Shown here one piece after another: positions 14,701 to 53,673 of a stretch of 64,000 nucleotides of DNA. The notes below the pieces were generated by a model. The model saw only the letters and a program-made list of their open reading frames with translations, made no database searches and was not told the origin of the DNA. This DNA comes from Candidatus Doudnabacteria bacterium. Its GTDB lineage: Bacteria; Patescibacteriota; Doudnabacteria; UBA920. The stretch spans positions 74,853 to 138,852 of the forward strand of contig CAWINB010000004.1 of the NCBI GenBank assembly GCA_963837465.1. Direction: 5' to 3'. Numbering within the stretch: the first letter of the stretch is position 1; each line of letters begins with the position of its first letter. The position numbers and the translations under genes are program-made.

Positions 14701-15206
14701 AAAGTAATTAAACAAGCCCTCTTTGGGGGTTTCATCAATAATATCAATATTTTTAGATAAAACACGGAAGTCCTTTATGGAATATTTTATGTTCTCTATC
14801 TTCCCGAAATCATGGATTGAGGACACAAAACATTCCCTTTTTACACGCATCCCGCTATTTTTTAATAATTGATGGGTTTTGGAAAAAAATTTACTTTATT
14901 TAAAAGCATAAATATTTTTCCAGCCAACGCAAAAAAATTTGCGGGGAACGCAAAAAGGGCCGATCCACAAAGGCTTATAGGCTTACAACATTGTGCATAT
15001 TTTGATTATACTCGTCAACCAAAACTTGTCAAGTCCCGATTCTACCGGAACAAAATCCTTAAAACCCGATATCTTTATACATCCATACTACCACACTTAC
15101 CCACAAACCTCAAACAGTTAATCCACAGGGGAATAAAAGATGGCTCTGATATTTTTTGGTTACTTTAAAATAAAGGCAATACCTTCTTTTAGTGGTGCTT
15201 ATTATT

Positions 15207-15430
15207 TACAAACACATAGAGAATTTTATATATGGATTTGAGTATTTTTTATGTATAAATCATTCACGTATCTACAAAAGTAGAAATTTTATATATGGAT
15301 TTGAGTTTTAGATTCTTATAATATTATAACATATCTACAAAAGTAGAAATTTTATATATGGATTTGAGAGTTCCTGTACGGAAAGGACTGGAATATCTAC
15401 AAAAGTAGAAATTTTATATATGGATTTGAG
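15207..15430 (-). CRISPR. CRISPR array, leader-distal segment: degenerate terminal repeat (15207-15242) plus three intact 36-nt repeats (15270-15305, 15333-15368, 15395-15430); spacers of 27, 27 and 26 nt
   Basis: Repeat on the transcribed (minus) strand is CTCAAATCCATATATAAAATTTCTACTTTTGTAGAT, the canonical Cas12a crRNA repeat 3' hairpin. Confidence 0.9.
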
Positions 15431-15443
15431 TGAACTGCTCTGA

Positions 15444-16403
15444 TTATACCGTACCACTTCGACCGTTTTTGATGAGAGGTTTTAGAGCGGTCTTGGTGTA
15501 GGCCATCGGCGGTTTGTAGCCGATGCTGCTGTGTAATCTTCTATAATTATAGTAGTTAATTTTCTTCTTTACAAACTTAATAACTTCGGTTAAATTGGTC
15601 AGCTCAGATATCTCGCTTTGCAGCTCAGTCTTAAACCTGCCAAAGAAAGATTCCTGTCCTGGATTGTCCGTTGGAGTGCCAGGCTTGGAAAAAGATATCT
15701 TGCCGTGTCCCAGTATCGCTTCCACATAACTGTAACCGGTATACTGACTGCCCCTGTCCTGATGCCAAATCATTTTCTTAAATAATCTTTTTAACAGTTT
15801 GGGACAAGGTGGGAGTCGGCTGATAGTTTTTAAAGCGCTGCAAAACGAATTTAAGACTAAAGTTTCTTCCATGTTGTCATCAATATCGTATCCGTAAACT
15901 GCTTCCCCTAAGTTGTCCTTATGTACACACAAGTAAGCTTTTCCGGTTTTGAACTTCAACTCCGTAATATCCGAAGTAACGGCCTGCAAGGGTTTGGTGA
16001 TATTAGCCTTTAAAAGTAAGTTGGCTTTATCTCCTAAAGCATTTAAAGTTTTTTGAATAAAAGTATCTTTATTCTTTTTAATATTTCTAGGTAGACTAAG
16101 GCCCCAAAGGTTGCTTAATTTAGCCACTTTATCTCGGCCAATAGTAATGCGCTTGTTATCGTTCAGCTCATAGTAAAGCCTTCTTATTCCATAACCAGAA
16201 TTATCTTTTATGACTTTGACAAAGACTGCTTTTAAATGTTTATGGGCAATTTCAAACTTTTGGGTTTTATCACAGGCGTGGTAGTAAGTGTCCTTACTGA
16301 TATTAAAGAGTTTACAGATTTGATTAATCCCAATTCCATCCTGGCCGGCAAACTTGCGACAGTATTCGGCGATGCAAAGCTTGCTTACCCCTGACTGTCT
16401 AAA
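15444..16403 (-). CDS. IS3-family transposase OrfB (integrase core), expressed as an OrfAB fusion by -1 frameshift at T TTT TTA (about 16398-16404); the track ORF 15444..16127 is the Met-initiated portion
   Basis: 'HQDRGSQYTGYSYVEAILGHGKISFSKPGTPTDNPGQESFFGRFKTE...YNYRRLHSSIGYKPP'. The -1 frame is open from the slippery heptamer into 'MAKLSNLWGL...'. Confidence 0.75.
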   Translation of the reverse strand, partial: FRQSGVSKLCIAEYCRKFAGQDGIGINQICKLFNISKDTYYHACDKTQKFEIAHKHLKAVFVKVIKDNSGYGIRRLYYELNDNKRITIGRDKVAKLSNLWGLSLPRNIKKNKDTFIQKTLNALGDKANLLLKANITKPLQAVTSDITELKFKTGKAYLCVHKDNLGEAVYGYDIDDNMEETLVLNSFCSALKTISRLPPCPKLLKRLFKKMIWHQDRGSQYTGYSYVEAILGHGKISFSKPGTPTDNPGQESFFGRFKTELQSEISELTNLTEVIKFVKKKINYYNYRRLHSSIGYKPPMAYTKTALKPLIKNGRSGTV

Positions 16404-16711
16404 AAATTTTTAAGTAAGTTAATTTCCACTTCCTTTTTTCCCAGTAAGGATTCCAGATCACGAATTTGTTGTTTTGCTTGCTCTGTAGTTTTATCTGCTT
16501 TGAGTTCAAAGATGCTGGGACCGTTGTCCAGGAAGTGCCTGCGCCAGGTGGAAATTTGGTTGGGAGCTAAGTTATGCTTCCTGGCCAGTGCTGTAACTTC
16601 CGATTGTTTAAAACTTTCCAGTACCAGGTTAAACTTAAATTGGGCTGAATGTTTAATCTTAGAATTTAATTTGCTGCTACGCTTGTAGACATATTTTTTT
16701 ACATAATTCAT
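16385..16711 (-). CDS. IS3-family transposase OrfA (HTH plus leucine zipper)
   Basis: 108 aa ending at the slippery site; typical OrfA arrangement upstream of OrfB. Confidence 0.75.
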   Translation of the reverse strand: MNYVKKYVYKRSSKLNSKIKHSAQFKFNLVLESFKQSEVTALARKHNLAPNQISTWRRHFLDNGPSIFELKADKTTEQAKQQIRDLESLLGKKEVEINLLKNFLDSQG

Positions 16712-16825
16712 AATGGTTTTAGCAGGGTTACAATTAATTGTATTTTACCCTCTAAAACCTCTCATGCATAGTGGTACGGGAAAGCCAGGACAGATCAGAG
16801 GATTACTACTGGCGCCGGGACTTTG

Positions 16826-17049
16826 ATCTACAAAAGTAGAAATTTTATATATGGATTTGAGTTTTATGGAACGGCGTACAAGCACAGATCTACAAAAGTA
16901 GAAATTTTATATATGGATTTGAGGGGGAATAACCAAGTCGCCGCATTCCATCTACAAAAGTAGAAATTTTATATATGGATTTGAGTATATTCTTTGTGGA
17001 AGATGTGGGCTACATCTACAAAAGTAGAAATTTTATATATGGATTTGAG
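16826..17049 (-). CRISPR. CRISPR array, leader-proximal segment: four intact 36-nt repeats (16826-16861, 16888-16923, 16950-16985, 17014-17049); spacers of 25 (IS-adjacent), 26, 26 and 28 nt
   Basis: Repeats identical to those of the distal segment. Leader 17050-17211 lies between the array and cas2. Confidence 0.9.
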
Positions 17050-17063
17050 TCCGAATTGTTTTA

Positions 17064-17121
17064 GTTTAAGCCAAAAAGAATGCAAATAACAAATAAATTG
17101 TTACGACTTTTTGGCTTAAAC
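17064..17121. repeat. perfect 15-bp inverted repeat in the CRISPR leader (GTTTAAGCCAAAAAG ... CTTTTTGGCTTAAAC, 28-nt spacer)
   Basis: Exact reverse-complement arms at 17064-17078 and 17107-17121. Confidence 0.6.
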
Positions 17122-17211
17122 ATAAGTGGCCAAAAAATAAAGACCAAGGTTTTCAAATCTATATTTAAACTTATACCTTTAGGTATTTTGTTTAATTTTT
17201 AAGGTACATTT

Positions 17212-17493
17212 TTATTTAAAGACTAACACATCTTTCTCTTCGTTAGCCGAATAGCCATAACGAATGACTTTTTTTTGACAGACCAGACAAACTGGAAAAA
17301 TAACAATACTATCGCTATTGGTAAACTGCTTTTTATATACCAATTCTATCTCTTTTAAAATGTTTGTCAATACGCGCGGGCTGTTCTTTATTTCAAAAAC
17401 CGAATACTGAATTCTGCGGCCAAATTTCTTTAAAAATTTGCTGAATTTTGTCCTGGTTTTGTCGTCGGCAAAATCGTAAGAAACTAAAATCAT
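17212..17493 (-). CDS. cas2: CRISPR-associated endoribonuclease Cas2
   Basis: 93 aa starting 'MILVSYDFADDKTRTKFSKFLKKFGRRIQYSVFE'; sits between cas1 and the array. Confidence 0.85.
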   Translation of the reverse strand: MILVSYDFADDKTRTKFSKFLKKFGRRIQYSVFEIKNSPRVLTNILKEIELVYKKQFTNSDSIVIFPVCLVCQKKVIRYGYSANEEKDVLVFK

Positions 17494-17494
17494 A

Positions 17495-18457
17495 TTATTG
17501 AACCTCTTTGTTTAAAATATTAAAGTCAGGAAACTCGCCGCCGCTATGCATAAGAGACCTGTAAAATTTTTGGGTGAATAAATATAAAGCCTCTTTATTG
17601 TCCATAATTGCTTCCATAAAAATTTTGCCGTACTTTTGGCTTTTTTGATAATCTAAAACATATCTTCTGCCTACAACAGAAAAATCTTTACTATCTATTT
17701 GCTTGAGGTTGTAGGATTTTATAAGTTGTTTTTCTATAATACAGCGAAATGGCTCAATGATATCGCAGGTTAGTGATTTCCGCTGGAAAAATAATTTATG
17801 ATAGACCCCTTTGTAGGTATCAAAGCCAAACAGCAATAAAAGCGAATCAATAAAGTTAAATAAAAAAGTATAGCCCATATCCAATAAAAAATTAGGGATA
17901 TCGGGTTTTACCCGCGGCATACGTCTAAGCCAGCCAATTTTCCCAAAATATTCTCCAAAAAATACTCGGCTAAAATTTCCTTCCAGTCCCAATAACTCTT
18001 CAGGATTTCTGGCATTAACGACCTGCGCTAAAAATTCTGCAATCCCAGCTTCAACGTTCAAATCCCTATCTAATAACCTAAACTGGTTTTCCATTTTATT
18101 TGCTACCAATTTTTTTGCCATCCTAAACTCTTTTTCCTCGGGCATAGTGTATTGCATTGACCTAAGCATATAATTTCCCTCTGCCCGCGCGTTAAGGGCG
18201 CCGTATAACCCAAAATTATTACCCAAAAAAAATAAGGAAACCGCCCGCTTGCGGCACTCTTTTACTAAACCAGAGGTAAAAGAAAAGTCCCCGATTACGA
18301 ATATAGCCAAAATGCGGTGGCACGAAGCCTGGTTTATAATTTTTCCCTCTTTTTCAAAAACCACGTTTTCATTTTTAAAGAACAACCGGTTTTTAGCTCC
18401 GTGTTCGGTCTGGACAAATAAAATCTGCTTGGCTTTTAAATCCGGCAAAGTTAGCAT
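17495..18457 (-). CDS. cas1: CRISPR-associated integrase Cas1
   Basis: 320 aa of typical Cas1 length and conservation, adjacent to cas2 and cas4. Confidence 0.85.
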   Translation of the reverse strand: MLTLPDLKAKQILFVQTEHGAKNRLFFKNENVVFEKEGKIINQASCHRILAIFVIGDFSFTSGLVKECRKRAVSLFFLGNNFGLYGALNARAEGNYMLRSMQYTMPEEKEFRMAKKLVANKMENQFRLLDRDLNVEAGIAEFLAQVVNARNPEELLGLEGNFSRVFFGEYFGKIGWLRRMPRVKPDIPNFLLDMGYTFLFNFIDSLLLLFGFDTYKGVYHKLFFQRKSLTCDIIEPFRCIIEKQLIKSYNLKQIDSKDFSVVGRRYVLDYQKSQKYGKIFMEAIMDNKEALYLFTQKFYRSLMHSGGEFPDFNILNKEVQ

Positions 18458-18460
18458 AAG

Positions 18461-19003
18461 TTAGTTCCAAGCTAATGGGCTGTAAATATTATTTTGACAA
18501 TGGGCGCATGAATGTTCGGTAATATCCTTGGGGCTGAAACTTCTCATTTTTTGCAACGTTTGTTCAAATTCTAAAATTTCCTCCGCGCTTGGCAAGCCAA
18601 CTTCATAACGTTTGTTATCGGAAAGGCTGTGTAAAAACATTTTTTCTACTTTATACCCCATTTCTTCCATACAAAACATTTCCGCGTAAAGCTGGTATTT
18701 GTAACCCAAATAAATGTTTTTAATTTTATTTTTGCGCTCTATTAAAGTTTTTCCGGTTTGGTCATATATATCGATCTTGCCAATCAAACCATACCTCTCG
18801 CAATATACATCTATCCCCTGAACAAATCGCTTAGCGCTGGAATAAGTCCCATCTTCTATATTTTCATGCACCAACTTCCCCGCCACCTGCGCAGTTTCGT
18901 GATATCCCCGCTGGTCAAAATTCTCATATATTGTATGCAGATATAAAGACAAAGGACAGTAAAGAAAGTCATTTATTTTGGAAATTTGTATGTAATTTTC
19001 CAT
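18461..19003 (-). CDS. cas4: CRISPR-associated Cas4 (RecB-like nuclease with Fe-S cysteines)
   Basis: 180 aa with an N-terminal 'YCP' and C-terminal 'CAHCQ' cysteines. Order is cas12a-cas4-cas1-cas2. Confidence 0.75.
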   Translation of the reverse strand: MENYIQISKINDFLYCPLSLYLHTIYENFDQRGYHETAQVAGKLVHENIEDGTYSSAKRFVQGIDVYCERYGLIGKIDIYDQTGKTLIERKNKIKNIYLGYKYQLYAEMFCMEEMGYKVEKMFLHSLSDNKRYEVGLPSAEEILEFEQTLQKMRSFSPKDITEHSCAHCQNNIYSPLAWN

Positions 19004-19010
19004 TTATTTT

Positions 19011-22000
19011 TTATTTCTGAACAAAGGAATCCCATTCTGATAAACTAACAAATAAGTCTTTATAAACCAATTTATCTGCGCCGCCTTTGGCCTTCGCGGC
19101 ATCTCTAATTTTATTAATCATATATAAACCTTTTCGAGCTATATTATAAGCTCCATTTGCGTCTCCGTTTATTATTGTTGCCAGACTAAGATTAGCATCT
19201 TTAGGATTACGGCTATCAAAACTGCAAACAGGGCATTGTATAAAATCATCATCCTTTTCAGAACTATTACGAATAGATAGCAATAGGCCAAAATAAAATA
19301 AAAAGTTTTTATAAAATTGCGCCGTCAAATTAGCATTAATTATCGCGTCTGTTATATCCCCTTTTCCACGCCAGTCAATCTTGGATTCGTCAAATAATTC
19401 AATAAACCTTTCTGTAATTTGATAGCTATTAGTAATATAACGCTTTTCTCCATTTTCAATTCTAGGGCTAGTCTTATAGCGAATAACGTCTGAATATAAA
19501 GTCCATTCGTTTTTCCCTGATGGTTTTTCATTACTGAAGTCAGCAATCTTATAAGTAAAAGCGAGCCTATTATTTTTTACCTCGTACTGGATCCGTAAAT
19601 TTTGGATTAACTCTTTTGATTTTTCAACATTTTCGAAAACAGTCTTTAGCCGCGCATCTTTACGGAAACCACAGTTTGGGCAGGTGGTAGAAGTATAAGC
19701 TGGGGCCGTATAGAATATCACACCCGTTTGTCCGGAAAGATTCTGAACACTTTGTATTGGAGAAGTTAGCTGAAAAGCTTTTAAAGGATGACCGAATTCA
19801 CCCTCTTGAGCGTGTTTAAGTACCAAAAAATTCAACTTTTTTACCAATGCCAATTCTAACTTTTGATAAACCTGTTTTTCTATTTTTGTTCTCCCGCGTT
19901 TAAACTTACTATTCAAATCCTCAAATATCACAATAGCATTATACTTTATAACTAAATCGCATAACTTTTTAACGGCGTGGGAAGCATAACCTTCTTTGAG
20001 TTCTTTGATATTTGCTATGGCCTGCCAGTCTAACCGAGCTTGTTTCCGTTGTTTTTCTCTTTCGTCTAATTTTTGGTGATAAGAAATACCATTAACTACA
20101 TTTAGACTCTGATGCTCATTTTCAATAATATTACCCTCGCCATCCAATATACAATAATAACCCAAGTGTTTTTCACCTCGGTCTATACCAATAATATTAA
20201 TCTTATTTTGTACCAACTCCTTATTAACTGCTATGTTAAAATTTTTAGGTGTAATAGCGCCACTATTTGCGTTTAATGATATGGGTAGATGAAGTAATAT
20301 TTTATCTTCCGTGTATCTTTTGTTCCCTATAACATCAATTTTAGTTTTCCTTTCTTTATCAACAACAGACTTAAGTGATTTTGGCCGGAAAAAAACTTCA
20401 GCTCCACCACTTAATTTAAAGACCAAATCGTTCAAATTTTGTTTATCAAATAAAAGTTTGAAGTATGTGGTATGCAGGTTTTCCTTACCGGATGATTTTT
20501 TAGCAAAATCCTTTGAATAAATCTCAAACAAATATAAATGTTTATCTGCCGTTTCTTTAGTTTTTTTATTTGTTCTAATATATACCCCCTGCTCTACATA
20601 AACTTGACTAACCTGTTCAAAATCAAGTTCGTAAGTATTAACCAATTCCAAATCAGCCAGTAAGTCCTTGGTGGCGACATATGTTTTACTAACAAGACTT
20701 TGCAACTCTGGGAACTTTGATATTTTAGTCAGCAGAATTTTGTTAATCCTTTCCAACAATTTTTTCTCAGACATAAGCTTCTTGTCGTCTTTGAAAGTTG
20801 AGCCAAACATGCCTTTATAACTACTTCCAAAAAGACTTGTGGTTTTGAGCTGCTTGTAGACCATTTTTTCATATCGTGCTCCTTTTTCAAATGCAGTAAA
20901 AGCTTCTGGATACTTCTGCCTTTCAAATAATCCTGGGTCATCAGAAATTCCCAGAAAGAACTTTTTATGCTTTTTGAAAATAAAACCACAAAATTGAGCC
21001 GCGCCGGCATCATTTTCAGACCAGCCATCTAATAAATTCCCTTTATCAAAATTCAACTTAACCTTTCTGGTCAAAAATATTTTTTTTGTCAAAAAATTAC
21101 GTAAAGCATCATAATATTTAAAGGCTGCCCAATTATGGTATATATCATTAAATGAATTATAAAAATTGCTTTCAATTTTTATATCTGCAATTTTCTTCTT
21201 CCCTTTTTCTAAAGCTAAATATTTTACCATACGGTATAAGCTTAAAACCGCTTCGGCATAATGCTTTACAATTTCCAAAGACTGTGGGGTTTTATTCCAC
21301 TTTTGTTTCAATAATAACCCAAGCTCTTTATTTGCTTCTTGATAAATCTTTAATAGTTGATAAAATTCACTGAGCCAAATGTTGTAAAAATTATGCAAAT
21401 GACTTTGCGTGGAATCGATTGTCTTAGTTTTAATATATTCTTCCTTAAAAAGATCTTCGTTTTTTATATAGCGTAATGTTTCCAGTGCATTGCTAATTTC
21501 CATAAAACTAACAAAATCCGGTAAATTATCTTTTATATCTTTTTTCTTTTTTTCTTCATTAACAATATTTATAACGGCTTGTTTAAAAATTTCACCATTT
21601 TTAAACCATTTATAGCTTATTGTATTAAAAGCTTGTCCGTTTACATAAATTCCCGATAAATCAAAAGGGGCTTTATCTATGAGCAACGATTTAAATAATT
21701 TTTCAATTTCTGGGATAACTTCATTATTTTCTCTTTCAAATTCGTTTAGTGTGTCTAATAAATTATCATCGTCTTCAATAATTAATCTACCAACTTCTTG
21801 GGCAGATTTCTCGCTTAGAATCTGCTTATACAAAGCCTGAAATAATGGCAATTTTTCTTCTTTGTGTTTCTGCCTATATTCATTAATTTTTTGATTCAAG
21901 CCCTTAGCTCCAACGCCGCCAGCTTCCTTATCTGCGCCAATTATTTTATTATAGACATCAATACCAGATTGCAAAAAACAGTTATTATAATAATCCAAAT

Positions 22001-22718
22001 TAAATATTTTTAAATCCTCCTCGCTAAATGCCAGATCGCCTTGTAGCTGACCTTTATAATATTTATCAAACAGCTCCTTATTTTTGGAAAAAATGGTTAA
22101 GTTTTCATCTATAATACGATTAGCAATTGCCGTATCTTCAGCGCCATCGCTATACAAATTTTCTCTGCTTTGACGAAAATTTCCCAAAGAAGTTGCAAAT
22201 TTTTTAAAAGAATCGATCAAAGCTACCGCTTCTTTATTTTTAATCTCTTGAGACTTTAAGATATCCAAAATTTCCTTTTTGAACAGAAATTTAAAGTCCG
22301 TCGAATTTTCAGCAAATTTTACACCATCGGCCGTATATTTTTCTCTCCACTTATCACCAGCGATTTTAAAATATTCAACAACCTCTCTACGTAGATTCTC
22401 TTTTTCTTTACTAAACGGATTCACTTTACCTTTTAACCCAGTTAAATTGCTACTAGTAAACAGCTCATAAAATTCCTTAAAATCCATTTCAGGGGCCATC
22501 AAGGCATCTATTACAAAACGACGATGTACTTCGTCCAAATATGGTTTTATTTTTTTATAATTTTCCGCTACTAATTTATCTTTTTCAATTATCCGGTTTT
22601 CCACCAACATTTTTAAAGTGTTTCCAACCGGCTTCAACTCAAACCTTAAAGTCTTGGAAAGGGCGTATTTTCCAGTAAATTGTTCAAAAATAGACTTTTC
22701 CTTAATTGTGTTTGGCAT
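19011..22718 (-). CDS. cas12a: Cas12a (Cpf1) type V-A effector nuclease
   Basis: 1235 aa with N-terminal 'YALSKTLRFELKPVGNTL'. RuvC-I 'IGIDRGEKHLGYYCIL', RuvC-II '...VIFEDLNSKFKRGR', RuvC-III 'DANGAYNIARKGL'. Adjacent cas4-cas1-cas2 and a Cas12a-type repeat. Confidence 0.9.
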   Translation of the reverse strand: MPNTIKEKSIFEQFTGKYALSKTLRFELKPVGNTLKMLVENRIIEKDKLVAENYKKIKPYLDEVHRRFVIDALMAPEMDFKEFYELFTSSNLTGLKGKVNPFSKEKENLRREVVEYFKIAGDKWREKYTADGVKFAENSTDFKFLFKKEILDILKSQEIKNKEAVALIDSFKKFATSLGNFRQSRENLYSDGAEDTAIANRIIDENLTIFSKNKELFDKYYKGQLQGDLAFSEEDLKIFNLDYYNNCFLQSGIDVYNKIIGADKEAGGVGAKGLNQKINEYRQKHKEEKLPLFQALYKQILSEKSAQEVGRLIIEDDDNLLDTLNEFERENNEVIPEIEKLFKSLLIDKAPFDLSGIYVNGQAFNTISYKWFKNGEIFKQAVINIVNEEKKKKDIKDNLPDFVSFMEISNALETLRYIKNEDLFKEEYIKTKTIDSTQSHLHNFYNIWLSEFYQLLKIYQEANKELGLLLKQKWNKTPQSLEIVKHYAEAVLSLYRMVKYLALEKGKKKIADIKIESNFYNSFNDIYHNWAAFKYYDALRNFLTKKIFLTRKVKLNFDKGNLLDGWSENDAGAAQFCGFIFKKHKKFFLGISDDPGLFERQKYPEAFTAFEKGARYEKMVYKQLKTTSLFGSSYKGMFGSTFKDDKKLMSEKKLLERINKILLTKISKFPELQSLVSKTYVATKDLLADLELVNTYELDFEQVSQVYVEQGVYIRTNKKTKETADKHLYLFEIYSKDFAKKSSGKENLHTTYFKLLFDKQNLNDLVFKLSGGAEVFFRPKSLKSVVDKERKTKIDVIGNKRYTEDKILLHLPISLNANSGAITPKNFNIAVNKELVQNKINIIGIDRGEKHLGYYCILDGEGNIIENEHQSLNVVNGISYHQKLDEREKQRKQARLDWQAIANIKELKEGYASHAVKKLCDLVIKYNAIVIFEDLNSKFKRGRTKIEKQVYQKLELALVKKLNFLVLKHAQEGEFGHPLKAFQLTSPIQSVQNLSGQTGVIFYTAPAYTSTTCPNCGFRKDARLKTVFENVEKSKELIQNLRIQYEVKNNRLAFTYKIADFSNEKPSGKNEWTLYSDVIRYKTSPRIENGEKRYITNSYQITERFIELFDESKIDWRGKGDITDAIINANLTAQFYKNFLFYFGLLLSIRNSSEKDDDFIQCPVCSFDSRNPKDANLSLATIINGDANGAYNIARKGLYMINKIRDAAKAKGGADKLVYKDLFVSLSEWDSFVQK

Positions 22719-22801
22719 AAGTTTTATTAGGAAAATTTAATTGTTAGGCTTATTTTAGGATAATTTCATAGTTTTTACAAATTTCGAGGCCGTTGACAAA
22801 T

Positions 22802-22830
22802 ATATTAAAACTGCTAAACTGTTTATACAA
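22802..22830 (-). promoter_or_regulatory. putative sigma70-type promoter for cas12a (TTGTAT-17-TAATAT on the minus strand)
   Basis: About 75 nt upstream of the cas12a ATG. Overlaps a plus-strand TTGACA-16-TAAACT promoter-like sequence (22793-22820). Confidence 0.4.
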
Positions 22831-22850
22831 ATGGTCACTAGGCCAACCGA

Positions 22851-22875
22851 GGCTCCCGAAAGGGAGCCGTTTTTT
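22851..22875 (+). terminator. plus-strand intrinsic terminator GGCTCCC-gaaa-GGGAGCC + T6, abutting the mazF-like stop
   Basis: Perfect 7-bp stem with a GNRA-like loop and T-run. Not terminator-like on the minus strand. Confidence 0.55.
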
Positions 22876-23269
22876 ATAGACCTAATAAACCTCCAAGCTT
22901 TTGTTTTATGGCTTGAAGCTGAGCTGGGGATATTTTTCTAACAAGTCTTCTAAACCTTTTTACGCTTACCAGCCGGAGCTGGGACAGGATGACGCTATAC
23001 AGATTTCCCTGATATTCAAGACCGTGATAATAAATACCGATTTTTTCTTTGCTTGTCATTGGCAAGACCCATGCCAACTTTGCGTTAAATTTCCTTACTA
23101 CTAAAACAGGCCTTTCATATAAATCGTTCTTTCCGTCCTGTTCATCACCCAAGTTAACTCCAATACTACACCACCAAATTTCTCTTTCATGAAAGGGTAG
23201 AGTGTCCGGAGCGATTATCTCTAAATTTTTCTTTTCTTTGTTCCAGCCGTCAAAATTTTTTTGATACAT
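22874..23269 (-). CDS. MazF/PemK-family endoribonuclease toxin-like protein (solitary)
   Basis: 'REIWWCSIGVNLGDEQDGKNDLYERPVLVV...VLPMTSK...SVILSQLRLVSVKRF' aligns with the MazF/EndoA core (GDV...GSEQ.G.RP.LV...P.TS...S.VLLDQIRTIDK.RL). No adjacent antitoxin ORF. Confidence 0.65.
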   Translation of the reverse strand: MYQKNFDGWNKEKKNLEIIAPDTLPFHEREIWWCSIGVNLGDEQDGKNDLYERPVLVVRKFNAKLAWVLPMTSKEKIGIYYHGLEYQGNLYSVILSQLRLVSVKRFRRLVRKISPAQLQAIKQKLGGLLGL

Positions 23270-23408
23270 TTATTTTATCTTGTAAGTTATCCGGGAGAAC
23301 TTATACTTACCCCTTCTTATATAGTATACGAACGTTTACCTTATGTAAAGTGCATAGCTATGGCCAATTTAACAACGGTTTTAAAAATGCTATAATTCAG
23401 CCATAGCT

Positions 23409-24389
23409 ATGGACAAGGTTATTGAAATCCAAAATTTAAAGAAAAGCTATCCGCTGGCCAAGGGGAAAAGTTTGGAAGCCATTAAGGGTACGTCTTTTTT
23501 TGTTGGGAAGGGCGAGATTTTTGGGATTTTGGGGCCGAATGGGGCGGGCAAGACTACGACTTTGGAGATTATAGAGGGCCTAAAACGGCAGACTGATGGC
23601 TTGGTAACCGTTTTAGGTTTTAACAACATAACGCAAGCCGATGAAATAAAAAAACGCATTGGGGTGCAGCTGCAATCGGCCGACTATCTCCCCTATTTAA
23701 CCTTAGGGGAATTATTAGATTTATTTGCGTCGCTTTATAGCCCTGTAGCGCAGGCCCCCGGCCTGCCCAAGCAGGAAAAGCAGGCCACGGGCCTGCGCTA
23801 CAAGAAACTCGATTTGCTAAAGCTCGTAGACCTACAAGAAAAAGAAAACGAACAGGTTAAAAACCTGTCCGGCGGCCAAAAGCAGCGTTTTACGATTGCT
23901 ACTTCTTTGGTTAACCGGCCGGAAATTTTATTTTTAGATGAGCCGACCACGGGCCTGGACCCGGCCGCGCGCAGGAATTTGTGGGATTTGGTAAAAAAAA
24001 TCAACGCCCGCGGAATCAGCATTGTCCTGACCACCCACTACATGGAAGAAGCGGAGTTTTTATGCCATCGCGTGGCTATTATGGACCACGGCGAAATTTT
24101 AAAAATAGACGAACCGAGGAAACTTATTGAACAGCTTTCTGGCACTGTGCAGGTTAGTTTTTTAACCAGCGATGACTGCGACGCCGAAATATTCAAATCC
24201 ATAACTGGGGTTAAAAAAGTTTACAGCCAGGCCCCGAAAACCATTATTGATATTGAGAACTTGGATAAAGTTGCCTCGGTAATAGAAAAACTTAAAGCTT
24301 CTAAAATTACTTTCAGCGGCTTTACCGTAAAAACCGCAAGCCTTGAAGATGTTTATTTGCAATTAACAGGCAGAGAATACCAGGAATAG
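23409..24389 (+). CDS. ABC transporter ATP-binding protein
   Basis: Walker A 'GPNGAGKTT', signature 'LSGGQKQR', Walker B 'ILFLDEPTTGLD'. Confidence 0.9.
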   Translation: MDKVIEIQNLKKSYPLAKGKSLEAIKGTSFFVGKGEIFGILGPNGAGKTTTLEIIEGLKRQTDGLVTVLGFNNITQADEIKKRIGVQLQSADYLPYLTLGELLDLFASLYSPVAQAPGLPKQEKQATGLRYKKLDLLKLVDLQEKENEQVKNLSGGQKQRFTIATSLVNRPEILFLDEPTTGLDPAARRNLWDLVKKINARGISIVLTTHYMEEAEFLCHRVAIMDHGEILKIDEPRKLIEQLSGTVQVSFLTSDDCDAEIFKSITGVKKVYSQAPKTIIDIENLDKVASVIEKLKASKITFSGFTVKTASLEDVYLQLTGREYQE

Positions 24390-24420: not shown

Positions 24421-24789
24421 ATGCAAATTCAAAGTTACAAAGATTTAATAGCATGGCAAAAGTCCATAATCCTTGTGAAGATTATTTACAAGATTTGTAA
24501 AGAATTTCCTAAAATGGAGTTATATAATCTTTCCAGCCAGATGCAGCGCTCAGCGATTTCCATACCATCTAATATTGCGGAAGGCTGGGCAAGAAACCAC
24601 AAACTTGAATTCGCCCGATTTCTTTCGATTGCTTATGCATCGGCCGCAGAACTGGAAACTCAAATCATTATTGCAAAAGATCAATATCCGGCTGTTGACT
24701 ACACAGAAGCAGAAAATTTATTATTAGAAATACAAAAAATACTATTTGTTCTTATAAGAAACACCAAATCGGCTGAACAAAAATGGTAG
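24421..24789 (+). CDS. four-helix-bundle protein (23S rRNA intervening-sequence protein family), inserted between the ABC ATPase and permease genes
   Basis: 122 aa; 'YKDLIAWQKS...LSSQMQRSAISIPSNIAEGWAR' is typical of TIGR02436-like proteins. Confidence 0.8.
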   Translation: MQIQSYKDLIAWQKSIILVKIIYKICKEFPKMELYNLSSQMQRSAISIPSNIAEGWARNHKLEFARFLSIAYASAAELETQIIIAKDQYPAVDYTEAENLLLEIQKILFVLIRNTKSAEQKW

Positions 24790-53466: not shown

Positions 53467-53673
53467 TGTTTCTAAAACACAAAGCCCCGCGCCAGCATGA
53501 GCCTTACGGCTCCATGGCCTTTCGACCATGACCCAACGAAGAGTAGCTGAACACGGGGTTCAGTATTTTCGTTGGGTTTTTTCATGCCATGCCCGGGCCC
53601 TTGGGGGGCTGCGGGTTTAGGCATATTAAGTTGTTAGCCTTATTTTAGGGTAATTTTAGGTTTTTTACAAATT

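What the first reader, a model, noticed from the sequence alone, without database searches (positions are those of the whole stretch)
15428..16800. Apparently intact IS3-family element inserted exactly at a repeat-spacer junction, splitting the CRISPR array
Between repeat 4 (ends 15430) and the next repeat (starts 16826) lies a 1367-bp element. It has 28-bp terminal inverted repeats beginning TG (21/28 identical), an OrfA, and an OrfB (DDE/rve) reachable by -1 frameshifting at the heptamer T TTT TTA. The trinucleotide GAG is duplicated on both sides (the last 3 nt of the repeat and the first 3 nt after the IS). This indicates a recent, precise transposition into the array. The insertion separates 3 distal spacers from the leader-proximal units and could attenuate or terminate pre-crRNA transcription, so it may inactivate older immunity.
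Basis: seen in the sequence. Interest (0 to 1): 0.68.

Follow-up and report, generated by a model that had tools for sequence, protein, structure and literature searches.

The report
IS3 insertion sequence splitting Cas12a array
A small, apparently still functional jumping gene of the IS3 family has landed cleanly between two units of a Cas12a CRISPR array in a tiny-genome (Patescibacteria/CPR) bacterium; this kind of event is already well known from other bacteria, so the finding is real but ordinary.

Summary
A 1367-bp element (15431-16797) lies between two perfect CRISPR repeats. It has TG...CA ends, 21/28 inverted repeats, an HTH orfA, and an rve/DDE orfB reached by -1 slippage at T TTT TTA. 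GAG flanks it on both sides. Three of five assessable relatives of the same IS clade carry perfect 3-bp duplications. Removing the IS and one GAG leaves a 25-nt spacer, the commonest length in arrays with this repeat. So GAG is a true target-site duplication.

The array is type V-A, read on the minus strand. cas12a-cas4-cas1-cas2 (22718-17212) are followed by the leader (17211-17050), four repeats, the IS, three repeats and a degenerate last repeat. The cut-off "older" spacers are therefore those at 15243-15394.

The IS is co-oriented with array transcription. It has no predicted intrinsic terminator on that strand. Both neighbouring repeat-spacer units are intact. Loss of distal immunity is possible but unshown.

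No empty site or second copy was found. The transposase is at most 61% identical to any protein found. IS insertions in CRISPR arrays are well documented (IS6110 in M. tuberculosis). Verdict: a new member of a known kind, of low interest.

The parts
15431..16797 (-). IS3-family insertion sequence, 1367 bp, with genes on the minus strand (co-oriented with the CRISPR transcript)
   Evidence: The ends match those of relative L017 to the terminal base. It is single copy in the window.
16770..16797 (-). Left inverted repeat (orfA side): TGATCTGTCCTGGCTTTCCCGTACCACT on the minus strand
   Evidence: pair I2 (21/28). Aligned to the L017 left end.
15431..15458 (-). Right inverted repeat (orfB side), ending ...CAGTTCA on the minus strand. 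The orfB stop codon lies 13 nt from the tip.
   Evidence: pair I2. Aligned to the L017 right end. Coordinates checked.
15428..15430 (.). Target-site duplication copy 1 (GAG). It also forms the first 3 nt (CTC) of the next repeat on the crRNA strand.
   Evidence: Relatives show 3-bp duplications: L018 TGC, L028 GGT, L029 CTT.
16798..16800 (.). Target-site duplication copy 2 (GAG), appended to the 3' end of spacer 4
   Evidence: The spacer-length statistics make the 25-nt spacer the most likely original.
16385..16711 (-). orfA, 108 aa, helix-turn-helix (HTH_Tnp_1)
16400..16406 (-). Slippery heptamer T TTT TTA for -1 programmed frameshifting
   Evidence: It is conserved in the same frame in L017. 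Between it and GTG 16127 the orfB frame has no start codon.
15444..16400 (-). orfB frame (318 codons plus stop): HTH_21 and the rve DDE catalytic core. The OrfAB fusion is 422 aa with D248, D319, E354 and K361.
16709..16766 (-). Predicted RNA hairpin in the IS 5' region whose outer stem pairs with the orfA AUG. It would form in transcripts that enter from outside the element.
   Evidence: z = -2.3. L017 has the same architecture (z = -3.1). Its function is inferred.
16801..16825 (-). Spacer 4 (25 nt, CAAAGTCCCGGCGCCAGTAGTAATC), the unit immediately upstream of the IS in transcript order
16826..17049 (-). Leader-proximal half of the array: repeats 1-4 and spacers 1-3
15207..15430 (-). Distal half of the array: repeats 5-7, spacers 5-7 and a degenerate terminal repeat (15207-15242)
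17050..17211 (-). CRISPR leader between cas2 and the first repeat
   Evidence: 76-86% identity to the cas2-to-array spacers of L003, L007 and L011, and 99% to L001.
17212..22718 (-). cas12a (22718-19011), cas4 (19003-18461), cas1 (18457-17495), cas2 (17493-17212)
   Evidence: TIGR04330 713 bits, TIGR04328, TIGR04329, TIGR01573. (LbCas12a and FnCas12a structures, E about 1e-123 to 1e-125; best chain 8qwd 6e-159).

Best explanation
A single copy of a previously uncatalogued IS3-family insertion sequence transposed into a seven-spacer type V-A (Cas12a) CRISPR array of a Patescibacteria (CPR) bacterium. The staggered cut was made on the 3 bp GAG/CTC that form the first three nucleotides of repeat 5 on the crRNA strand. 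After repair, one copy of the triplet still completes repeat 5 and the other is appended to the 25-nt spacer 4. No repeat or spacer was damaged. The element looks transposition-competent. OrfA and the OrfAB fusion would be made from one mRNA by -1 slippage at U UUU UUA. OrfAB carries an intact DD(35)E(+7)K core, and both ends are intact.

The IS lies in the same direction as pre-crRNA transcription (leader, R1-S4, IS, R5-S7, rpoB promoter). Spacers 1-3 are unaffected. Spacer 4 keeps its 5' handle and probably still gives a working guide, with an untrimmed or differently trimmed 3' end. Spacers 5-7 now depend on read-through of 1.37 kb of IS, or on fortuitous promoters inside it, so their crRNAs are probably reduced rather than abolished.

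A conserved hairpin at the IS 5' end pairs with the orfA start codon. It would limit transposase translation from read-through transcripts coming from the CRISPR leader.

Shown here: anatomy, family, duplication and polarity. Inferred: transposition competence, the effect on crRNA levels and the role of the hairpin.
For: - IS anatomy and family.
- Catalytic D, D, E and K are invariant among 18 clade members, with D-35-E spacing.
- The frameshift heptamer is conserved in frame in L017, and the -1 frame is coding between the slip site and the called orfB start. There is no alternative start in the orfB frame before GTG 16127.
- The ends are conserved to the last base with L017, and similarity stops at the ends.
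- 3-bp duplications occur in 3 of 5 assessable relatives. The chance of at least 3 of 5 is 4e-5.
- The 25-nt spacer is the modal length: 56 of 155 spacers in arrays with the same repeat core, against 20 of 155 for 28 nt.
- Polarity: cas12a-cas4-cas1-cas2 lie on the minus strand, directly upstream. The repeat folds into the Cas12a-type 5-bp stem and 4-nt loop at its 3' end only on the minus strand. The terminal repeat at the far end is degenerate. The leader is conserved next to cas2 in related loci.
- No terminator-like site lies inside the IS on the minus strand.
- The 5' hairpin covers the AUG in the window and in L017.
- Host: the rpoB relatives and the IS relatives are named Patescibacteria or Parcubacteria, and the source contig is 868 kb.
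Against: - No uninterrupted version of the array was found. The duplication therefore rests on analogy with relatives and on spacer-length statistics, not on an empty site.
- No second copy is available, so activity and age are unknown.
- Two relatives (L017 with 2/3 matching, L026 with none) lack a perfect duplication.
- The RNA downstream of the slip site folds no better than shuffled sequence, z = 0.06, so no frameshift stimulator is evident.
- Promoter-like matches in the region are no more frequent than in shuffles, 8 against 9.0 +/- 3.0. Outward promoters in the IS and the IS's own promoter are therefore guesses.
- The hairpin comparison rests on two sequences only.
- Rho-dependent termination and transcript stability cannot be assessed from sequence.
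Confidence: 0.85

Rival explanations
1. There is no target-site duplication. The native spacer was 28 nt and happened to end in CTC (GAG on the plus strand). The IS sits at the junction either without a duplication or after recombination between two IS copies that removed intervening units.
For: 28-nt spacers exist in this array (spacer 1) and make up 13% of spacers in related arrays. Two relatives lack a perfect duplication. No empty site was recovered.
Against: A chance GAG match has probability 1/64. Relatives of this clade make 3-bp duplications. 25 nt is the modal spacer length. No second IS copy that could have recombined is seen in the window.
Confidence: 0.08
2. Assembly artefact: a multicopy IS was wrongly placed between two repeat-ended contigs during assembly of the 868-kb contig.
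For: Short-read assemblies of the same or a closely related strain break at the first repeat (L001 and L023). Arrays and IS elements are both classic sites of misassembly.
Against: The junctions fall exactly at the conserved IS tips, with a matching 3-bp duplication and a spacer of normal length. A chimeric join would not produce this. No other IS copy or fragment occurs in the 64-kb window. The exact OrfA and OrfB proteins are recorded on one contig only.
Confidence: 0.04
3. The insertion is old and the element is a dead, fixed relic. The distal spacers are already non-functional remnants, so the event has no present consequence.
For: It is single copy. Spacers 6 and 7 are very AT-rich and of low complexity, and the terminal repeat is degenerate. 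No protospacer was found for spacer 4.
Against: Both reading frames, the slip site, the catalytic residues, both ends and the duplication are all intact, and the six flanking repeats are identical to each other. Decay would be expected to have hit at least one of these.
Confidence: 0.15
4. Targeted insertion: this IS clade prefers CRISPR repeats or similar hairpin-bearing repeats. Precedents are IS6110 at the M. tuberculosis DR locus and the Tn7-like elements that use CRISPR repeats as attachment sites.
For: The insertion lies exactly at a repeat edge. There is precedent in PMC7820667 and PMC11837452.
Against: None of the five relatives examined sits in a CRISPR array, and their duplicated triplets differ (TGC, GGT, CTT). 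None of 15 related arrays carries an IS.
Confidence: 0.04

Closest known systems
IS6110 in the direct-repeat (CRISPR, type III-A) locus of Mycobacterium tuberculosis
   Same: It is an IS3-family element of nearly the same size (1,361 bp against 1367 bp). It has 28-bp terminal inverted repeats, overlapping orfA and orfB, and a 3-bp target duplication, and it splits one CRISPR array into two (PMC7820667).
   Different: IS6110 sits inside a repeat and breaks it, whereas here the duplication leaves both flanking repeats whole. IS6110 is multicopy and drives deletions, whereas here only a single copy is seen. The host is a CPR bacterium and the array is type V-A. The transposase is at most about 30% identical to IS3-family transposases on plasmids of cultured bacteria.
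IS elements in Xanthomonas citri CRISPR arrays (ISRso19-like, IS21 family), and IS insertions that inactivate cas genes
   Same: These are natural IS insertions in a repeat or spacer of an otherwise intact array, or in the cas operon, and they are used as strain markers (PMC6889575; PMC10359306).
   Different: The IS family is different. In those cases related strains supplied the uninterrupted state, which is not available here.
Tn7-like transposons that target CRISPR repeats, and phage PhiAP1.1, which integrates into CRISPR repeats
   Same: These are mobile elements that reside inside arrays. For PhiAP1.1, spacers downstream of the insertion are reported not to be transcribed (as cited in PMC11837452).
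   Different: Those elements recognise the repeat as an attachment site. No such preference is seen for this IS clade.
Protection of IS10/Tn10 from outside transcription by an RNA fold-back that hides the transposase start codon (Davis, Simons and Kleckner 1985; from my own knowledge, not checked here)
   Same: A hairpin formed only when transcription enters from outside would pair the orfA AUG with terminal-repeat sequence.
   Different: This is a prediction from two sequences. The IS's own promoter and transcription start are not known. The IS family is different.

Membership tests
IS3 family of insertion sequences | DDE transposase with an rve (integrase core) domain, a DD(35)E motif and K/R seven residues after E | tested here: met
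   Pfam rve, rve_3 and rve_2 match, and NCBIfam transpos_IS3 scores 163.6 bits against a cut-off of 160. D248, D319, E354 and K361 are invariant in 18 relatives, and the D-to-E spacing is 35.
IS3 family of insertion sequences | Two consecutive, overlapping reading frames (orfA with HTH, orfB in the -1 frame) joined by programmed -1 frameshifting at a slippery heptamer | tested here: met
   The frames and the X XXY YYZ heptamer T TTT TTA are present. The heptamer is conserved in frame in L017. There is no independent start for full-length OrfB. Actual slippage was not tested, and no significant downstream structure was found.
IS3 family of insertion sequences | Imperfect terminal inverted repeats of about 20-40 bp ending 5'-TG...CA-3', and a total length of 1.2-1.55 kb | tested here: met
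   The IRs are 28 bp with 21/28 matches, the ends are TG/CA, and the length is 1367 bp.
IS3 family of insertion sequences | Short (3-5 bp) target-site duplication | tested here: met
   GAG lies on both sides. Perfect 3-bp duplications occur in relatives L018, L028 and L029. There is no empty site to confirm it directly.
IS3 family of insertion sequences | Copy-out-paste-in transposition through a circular intermediate with a junction promoter | not testable with these tools
   This needs reads or an experiment. No convincing -35/-10 pair across abutted ends was seen by eye.
IS3 family: named subgroup (IS2, IS3, IS51, IS150, IS407) | Clustering of OrfB with the subgroup's reference elements | tested here: inconclusive
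   The best tblastn matches on 72,556 plasmids are all annotated IS3 family, but at 30% identity or less. The close relatives (47-61%) are all from uncultured Patescibacteria-type metagenome contigs. No ISfinder comparison was possible.
Type V-A (Cas12a) CRISPR-Cas locus | Cas12a effector with cas4-cas1-cas2 followed by the array on the same strand | tested here: met
   TIGR04330 scores 713 bits, and the type-V-specific Cas4 and Cas1 models and Cas2 all match. Cas12a structures match at E 1e-123 to 1e-159, with IGIDRGE and FEDLN motifs visible.
Type V-A (Cas12a) CRISPR-Cas locus | 36-nt repeat ending in AAUUUCUAC-loop-GUAGAU, forming the 5' handle stem-loop upstream of each spacer | tested here: met
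   On the minus strand the repeat is CTCAAATCCATATATAAAATTTCTACTTTTGTAGAT. It folds into a 5-bp stem and 4-nt loop at the 3' end, z = -2.8. The same repeat core occurs next to cas genes in 15 metagenome loci.
Type V-A (Cas12a) CRISPR-Cas locus | Self-processing of pre-crRNA by Cas12a, with no tracrRNA | not tested
   This is inferred from family membership (Zetsche 2015, Fonfara 2016; my own knowledge). The RNase residues were not checked.

The most novel reading that the evidence does not exclude
The co-oriented IS may have become wired into CRISPR expression. Transcription from the CRISPR leader would run through the element. Cas12a cleavage in repeats 4 and 5 would excise a discrete spacer4-transposase RNA. 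The conserved 5' hairpin would gate its translation. IS activity and crRNA supply for the older spacers would then be coupled. Alternatively, this CPR-specific IS3 clade may have a preference for CRISPR repeat edges.
Probability: 0.05. Interest if true: 0.5.

Novelty: new member of a known kind. Interest (0 to 1): 0.22.

Why it matters
IS insertions are a recognised way for CRISPR loci to be remodelled or disabled, so the event itself teaches little that is new. Three things give it modest value.

1. It is a clean, fully resolved example in a CPR/Patescibacteria genome. CRISPR-Cas is rare in this group (PMC6509639), and mobile-element biology there is poorly described.
2. It defines a new IS, at most 61% identical to any protein found among 5.8 billion clusters. 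The IS belongs to a CPR-restricted IS3 clade with 3-bp duplications and a U-rich or A-rich slip site.
3. Cas12a needs only the upstream repeat, and the duplication preserved both neighbouring units. The locus is therefore a natural test of how much a 1.4-kb co-oriented insert lowers distal crRNA output.

It also serves as a strain marker for this population.

Tried and rejected
- Uninterrupted array: the exact spacer-4 sequence gave no hit in metagenome contigs. The 15 metagenome loci that share the repeat core share no spacer and carry no IS. Contigs of the same or a near-identical strain (L001, L023) end in the first repeat.
- Other IS copies: none in the window by blastn or tblastn. A 32-nt IS-end pattern gave no hit in genome contigs and another gave none in viral contigs. 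Exact OrfA and OrfB look-ups were not on record, although the cluster look-up shows each on one 868-kb contig.
- Cas1-based search of species-representative genomes returned nothing, so the source species is apparently not in that collection.
- Protospacer test of 25 against 28 nt: two sub-patterns of spacer 4 gave no hit in viral contigs.
- Self-targeting or IS-targeting spacers: none of the 7 window spacers or the 155 related spacers matches the IS or the window beyond chance.
- Frameshift-stimulating structure: the fold is no better than shuffled sequence.
- Hybrid promoter across the IS end and the repeat: none convincing by eye. The promoter scan is at background level.
- The apparent similarity between spacer 4 and the L017 left flank (GCGCCAGTAG against GCGCTAGTAG) lies at a different distance from the IS end. 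I treated it as chance.
- CRISPR-repeat targeting by the clade was rejected on five non-CRISPR insertion sites.
Full report
**1. What is in the sequence**

The 36-nt unit ATCTACAAAAGTAGAAATTTTATATATGGATTTGAG occurs seven times without a mismatch. The copies start at 15270, 15333, 15395, 16826, 16888, 16950 and 17014, and none is expected by chance. Spacing is 62-64 bp, except for 1431 bp between the third and fourth copies. An eighth copy at 15207-15242 keeps only the half adjoining the spacer.

The extra DNA is 15431-16797, 1367 bp. Its 28-nt tips are inverted repeats with 21/28 matches, starting TG and ending CA (pair I2). A further 16-nt perfect inverted match, ATGAGAGGTTTTAGAG, lies just inside both tips. 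GAG precedes and follows the element.

**2. The element is an IS3-family insertion sequence and looks intact**

- Both genes are on the minus strand. orfA (16711-16385, 108 aa) matches HTH_Tnp_1 and positions 1-80 of NCBIfam transpos_IS3. The downstream frame matches rve, rve_3, rve_2, HTH_21 and positions 99-368 of transpos_IS3, at 163.6 bits against a cut-off of 160.
- orfB lies in the -1 frame relative to orfA. The orfA-frame codons AAT TTT TTA give the heptamer T TTT TTA at 16406-16400. Slipping there yields a 422-aa OrfAB.
- In the orfB frame there is no ATG, GTG or TTG between the slip site and GTG 16127. Full-length OrfB can therefore only be made by frameshifting.
- In an alignment with 17 relatives, the catalytic D, D and E, and the K seven residues after E, are invariant, and the D-to-E spacing is 35.
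- The nearest relative found among 5.8 billion protein clusters is 61% identical (P0001, on locus L017). The next ones are 46-56% identical. The few that carry names are called IS3 family transposase from Parcubacteria or Patescibacteria.
- Against 72,556 plasmids of mostly cultured bacteria, every hit is an IS3-family transposase at 30% identity or less. This is a new IS within a CPR-associated branch of the IS3 family.
- L017 has the same heptamer in the same frame, and its -1 frame is coding downstream of it. L018 has A AAA AAT at the equivalent place.
- L017 also aligns with the window element up to exactly the terminal TG and CA. Similarity ends there, which fixes the boundaries independently of the inverted repeats.
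- The RNA downstream of the slip site is not unusually structured, z = 0.06.

**3. Is GAG a target-site duplication?**

No uninterrupted copy of the array could be found (section 7), so I tested the idea in two indirect ways.

The first test used five relatives that lie on contigs with both flanks:

| Locus | Left flank | Right flank | Result |
|---|---|---|---|
| L018 | TGC | TGC | perfect 3-bp duplication |
| L028 | GGT | GGT | perfect 3-bp duplication |
| L029 | CTT | CTT | perfect 3-bp duplication |
| L017 | CTA | CCA | 2 of 3 match |
| L026 | AAC | TAA | no match |

The chance of three or more perfect triplets in five is 4e-5. The clade therefore makes 3-bp duplications, as IS3-family elements typically do.

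The second test used spacer length. Removing the IS and one GAG leaves a 25-nt spacer. Among 155 spacers from 15 metagenome arrays with the same repeat core, 25 nt is the commonest length (56), and 28 nt is less common (20). Both results favour a true duplication. I put the alternative, a native 28-nt spacer that happens to end in CTC, at about 8%.

**4. The array and its direction**

- The genes at 22718-17212 on the minus strand are cas12a (TIGR04330, 713 bits), a type-V cas4, a type-V cas1 and cas2. The Cas12a aligns with solved Lb, Fn and As Cas12a structures.
- On the minus strand the repeat reads CTCAAATCCATATATAAAATTTCTACTTTTGTAGAT. It folds into a 5-bp stem and 4-nt loop at its 3' end, the Cas12a handle.
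- The 162 bp between cas2 and the first repeat is conserved at 76-86% with the equivalent stretch in three related loci.
- The degenerate repeat lies at the far end.

Transcript order is therefore: leader (17211-17050), R1-S1-R2-S2-R3-S3-R4-S4, IS, R5-S5-R6-S6-R7-S7, degenerate repeat. The three spacers that the IS separates from the leader are the ones at 15243-15394.

The duplicated triplet is the first three bases (CTC) of repeat 5. One copy still completes that repeat, and the other is appended to spacer 4. All repeats and spacers remain whole.

**5. Likely consequences (inferred)**

- Cas12a cuts its own pre-crRNA within each repeat and needs only the repeat upstream of a spacer (established for the family; my own knowledge).
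- Spacers 1-3 are untouched.
- Spacer 4 keeps its handle but now runs into IS sequence instead of a repeat. It probably still guides, with a different 3' end.
- Spacers 5-7 need transcription through the IS. The IS genes point the same way as the array. No intrinsic terminator is predicted inside the IS on that strand; the only minus-strand candidate is at 14954-14938, beyond the array.
- Two promoter-like matches face outward near the orfB end. One is TTGTAA-17-TATAAT at 15574-15546. The other is a TATAAT at 15449-15444. Such matches are no more frequent here than in shuffled sequence.
- I therefore expect reduced, not abolished, distal crRNAs. The claim that older immunity is inactivated is unproven.
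- Read-through RNA entering the IS folds into a hairpin (16766-16709) whose outer stem pairs with the orfA AUG, z = -2.3. L017 has the same design with different inner sequence, z = -3.1. This resembles the fold-back protection of IS10 against outside promoters. It would keep leader-driven transcription from boosting transposase. With two sequences it is only a lead.

**6. Context**

- The rpoB relatives, up to 88% identical, and the few with names, point to Patescibacteria. The source contig is 868 kb.
- In a relative (L024), the ABC-transporter ATPase gene lies directly beside rpoB, with no CRISPR locus. In the window, the PemK/MazF-like ORF, the four cas genes and the array with its IS (about 15040-23400) lie between these two landmarks.
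- G+C is 33% for the cas genes, 39% for the IS and 43% for the window.
- The array ends about 170 bp from a perfect TTGACA-16-TATAAT promoter (15032-15005), conserved in relatives upstream of rpoB.

**7. What could not be obtained**

- Spacer 4 and the IS ends gave no exact match in the metagenome, genome or viral collections.
- The 15 arrays that share the repeat share no spacer.
- Contigs of the same strain stop at the first repeat.
- Exact-protein look-ups for OrfA and OrfB returned nothing retrievable.
- Age, copy number in the rest of the genome and population polymorphism therefore remain open.

**8. Comparison with what is known**

- The closest parallel is IS6110 in the M. tuberculosis CRISPR locus. 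It is an IS3-family element of 1,361 bp with 28-bp inverted repeats, a 3-bp duplication and a split array (PMC7820667).
- IS elements in Xanthomonas citri arrays (PMC6889575) and IS insertions into cas genes (PMC10359306) show that the phenomenon is general.
- Elements that actively target CRISPR repeats exist (PMC11837452). The five non-CRISPR insertion sites of relatives argue against targeting by this clade.

**9. Verdict**

This is a real, cleanly resolved IS3-family insertion with a 3-bp duplication in a Cas12a array of a CPR bacterium. It is a new member of a known kind. Its functional effect on the three distal spacers is plausible but unshown. Interest is low (0.22).

Noticed in passing
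window 15040-23400: The whole type V-A CRISPR-Cas locus and a PemK/MazF-like toxin ORF (22874-23269, minus strand) lie between an ABC-transporter ATPase gene (23409-24389) and the rpoB promoter. A relative with 88% identical RpoB (L024) has the ABC gene directly next to rpoB and no CRISPR locus. The locus therefore looks like an AT-rich (33% G+C) acquired island placed immediately upstream of rpoBC.
   Followed up: partly
window 15005-15032 (-) and 14938-14954 (-): A perfect sigma-70 consensus promoter (TTGACA-16-TATAAT) is followed about 50 nt later by a terminator-like hairpin with a T run, upstream of rpoB. The segment is conserved in relatives L024 and L025. It may be an rpoB leader or attenuator. 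Read-through from the array or the IS would run into it.
   Followed up: partly
window 24421-24789 (+): A gene for a 23S rRNA-intervening-sequence protein (PF05635, E 2e-33) sits between the ABC ATPase and ABC-2 permease genes. Those two genes are adjacent and overlapping in relative L024.
   Followed up: no
window 53499-53623 (-): The only Rfam match above threshold in the window is LOOT RNA (RF03000), 65.6 bits, full length.
   Followed up: no
window 17068-17117: The CRISPR leader contains a perfect 11-bp inverted repeat (AAGCCAAAAAG ... CTTTTTGGCTT) with a loop of about 28 nt, just upstream of the first repeat. The near-identical strain L001 differs by a 1-nt deletion in the loop. It has no T run, so it is not a typical terminator.
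   Followed up: no
L017, L018, L026, L028, L029, L030: The CPR-associated IS3 clade splits into two types by 5' untranslated region. The window element and L017 have the ATGAGAGGTTTTAGAG-type hairpin. The other five share GCTAAGGAAGATTTGGTA. Slip sites also differ (T TTT TTA against A AAA AAT).
   Followed up: partly
L009 and L011 (metagenome contigs Ga0209541_10174773 and Ga0209542_10068092): These two contigs, from two related samples, carry the same run of spacers with the repeat identical to the window's. They appear to be the same array sampled twice. L009 has one abnormally short (14-nt) gap between repeats.
   Followed up: no
window 15306-15332 and 15243-15269: The two oldest spacers are extremely AT-rich, and spacer 6 is partly palindromic (TTATAATATTATAA). 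This is unlike the four leader-proximal spacers.
   Followed up: no
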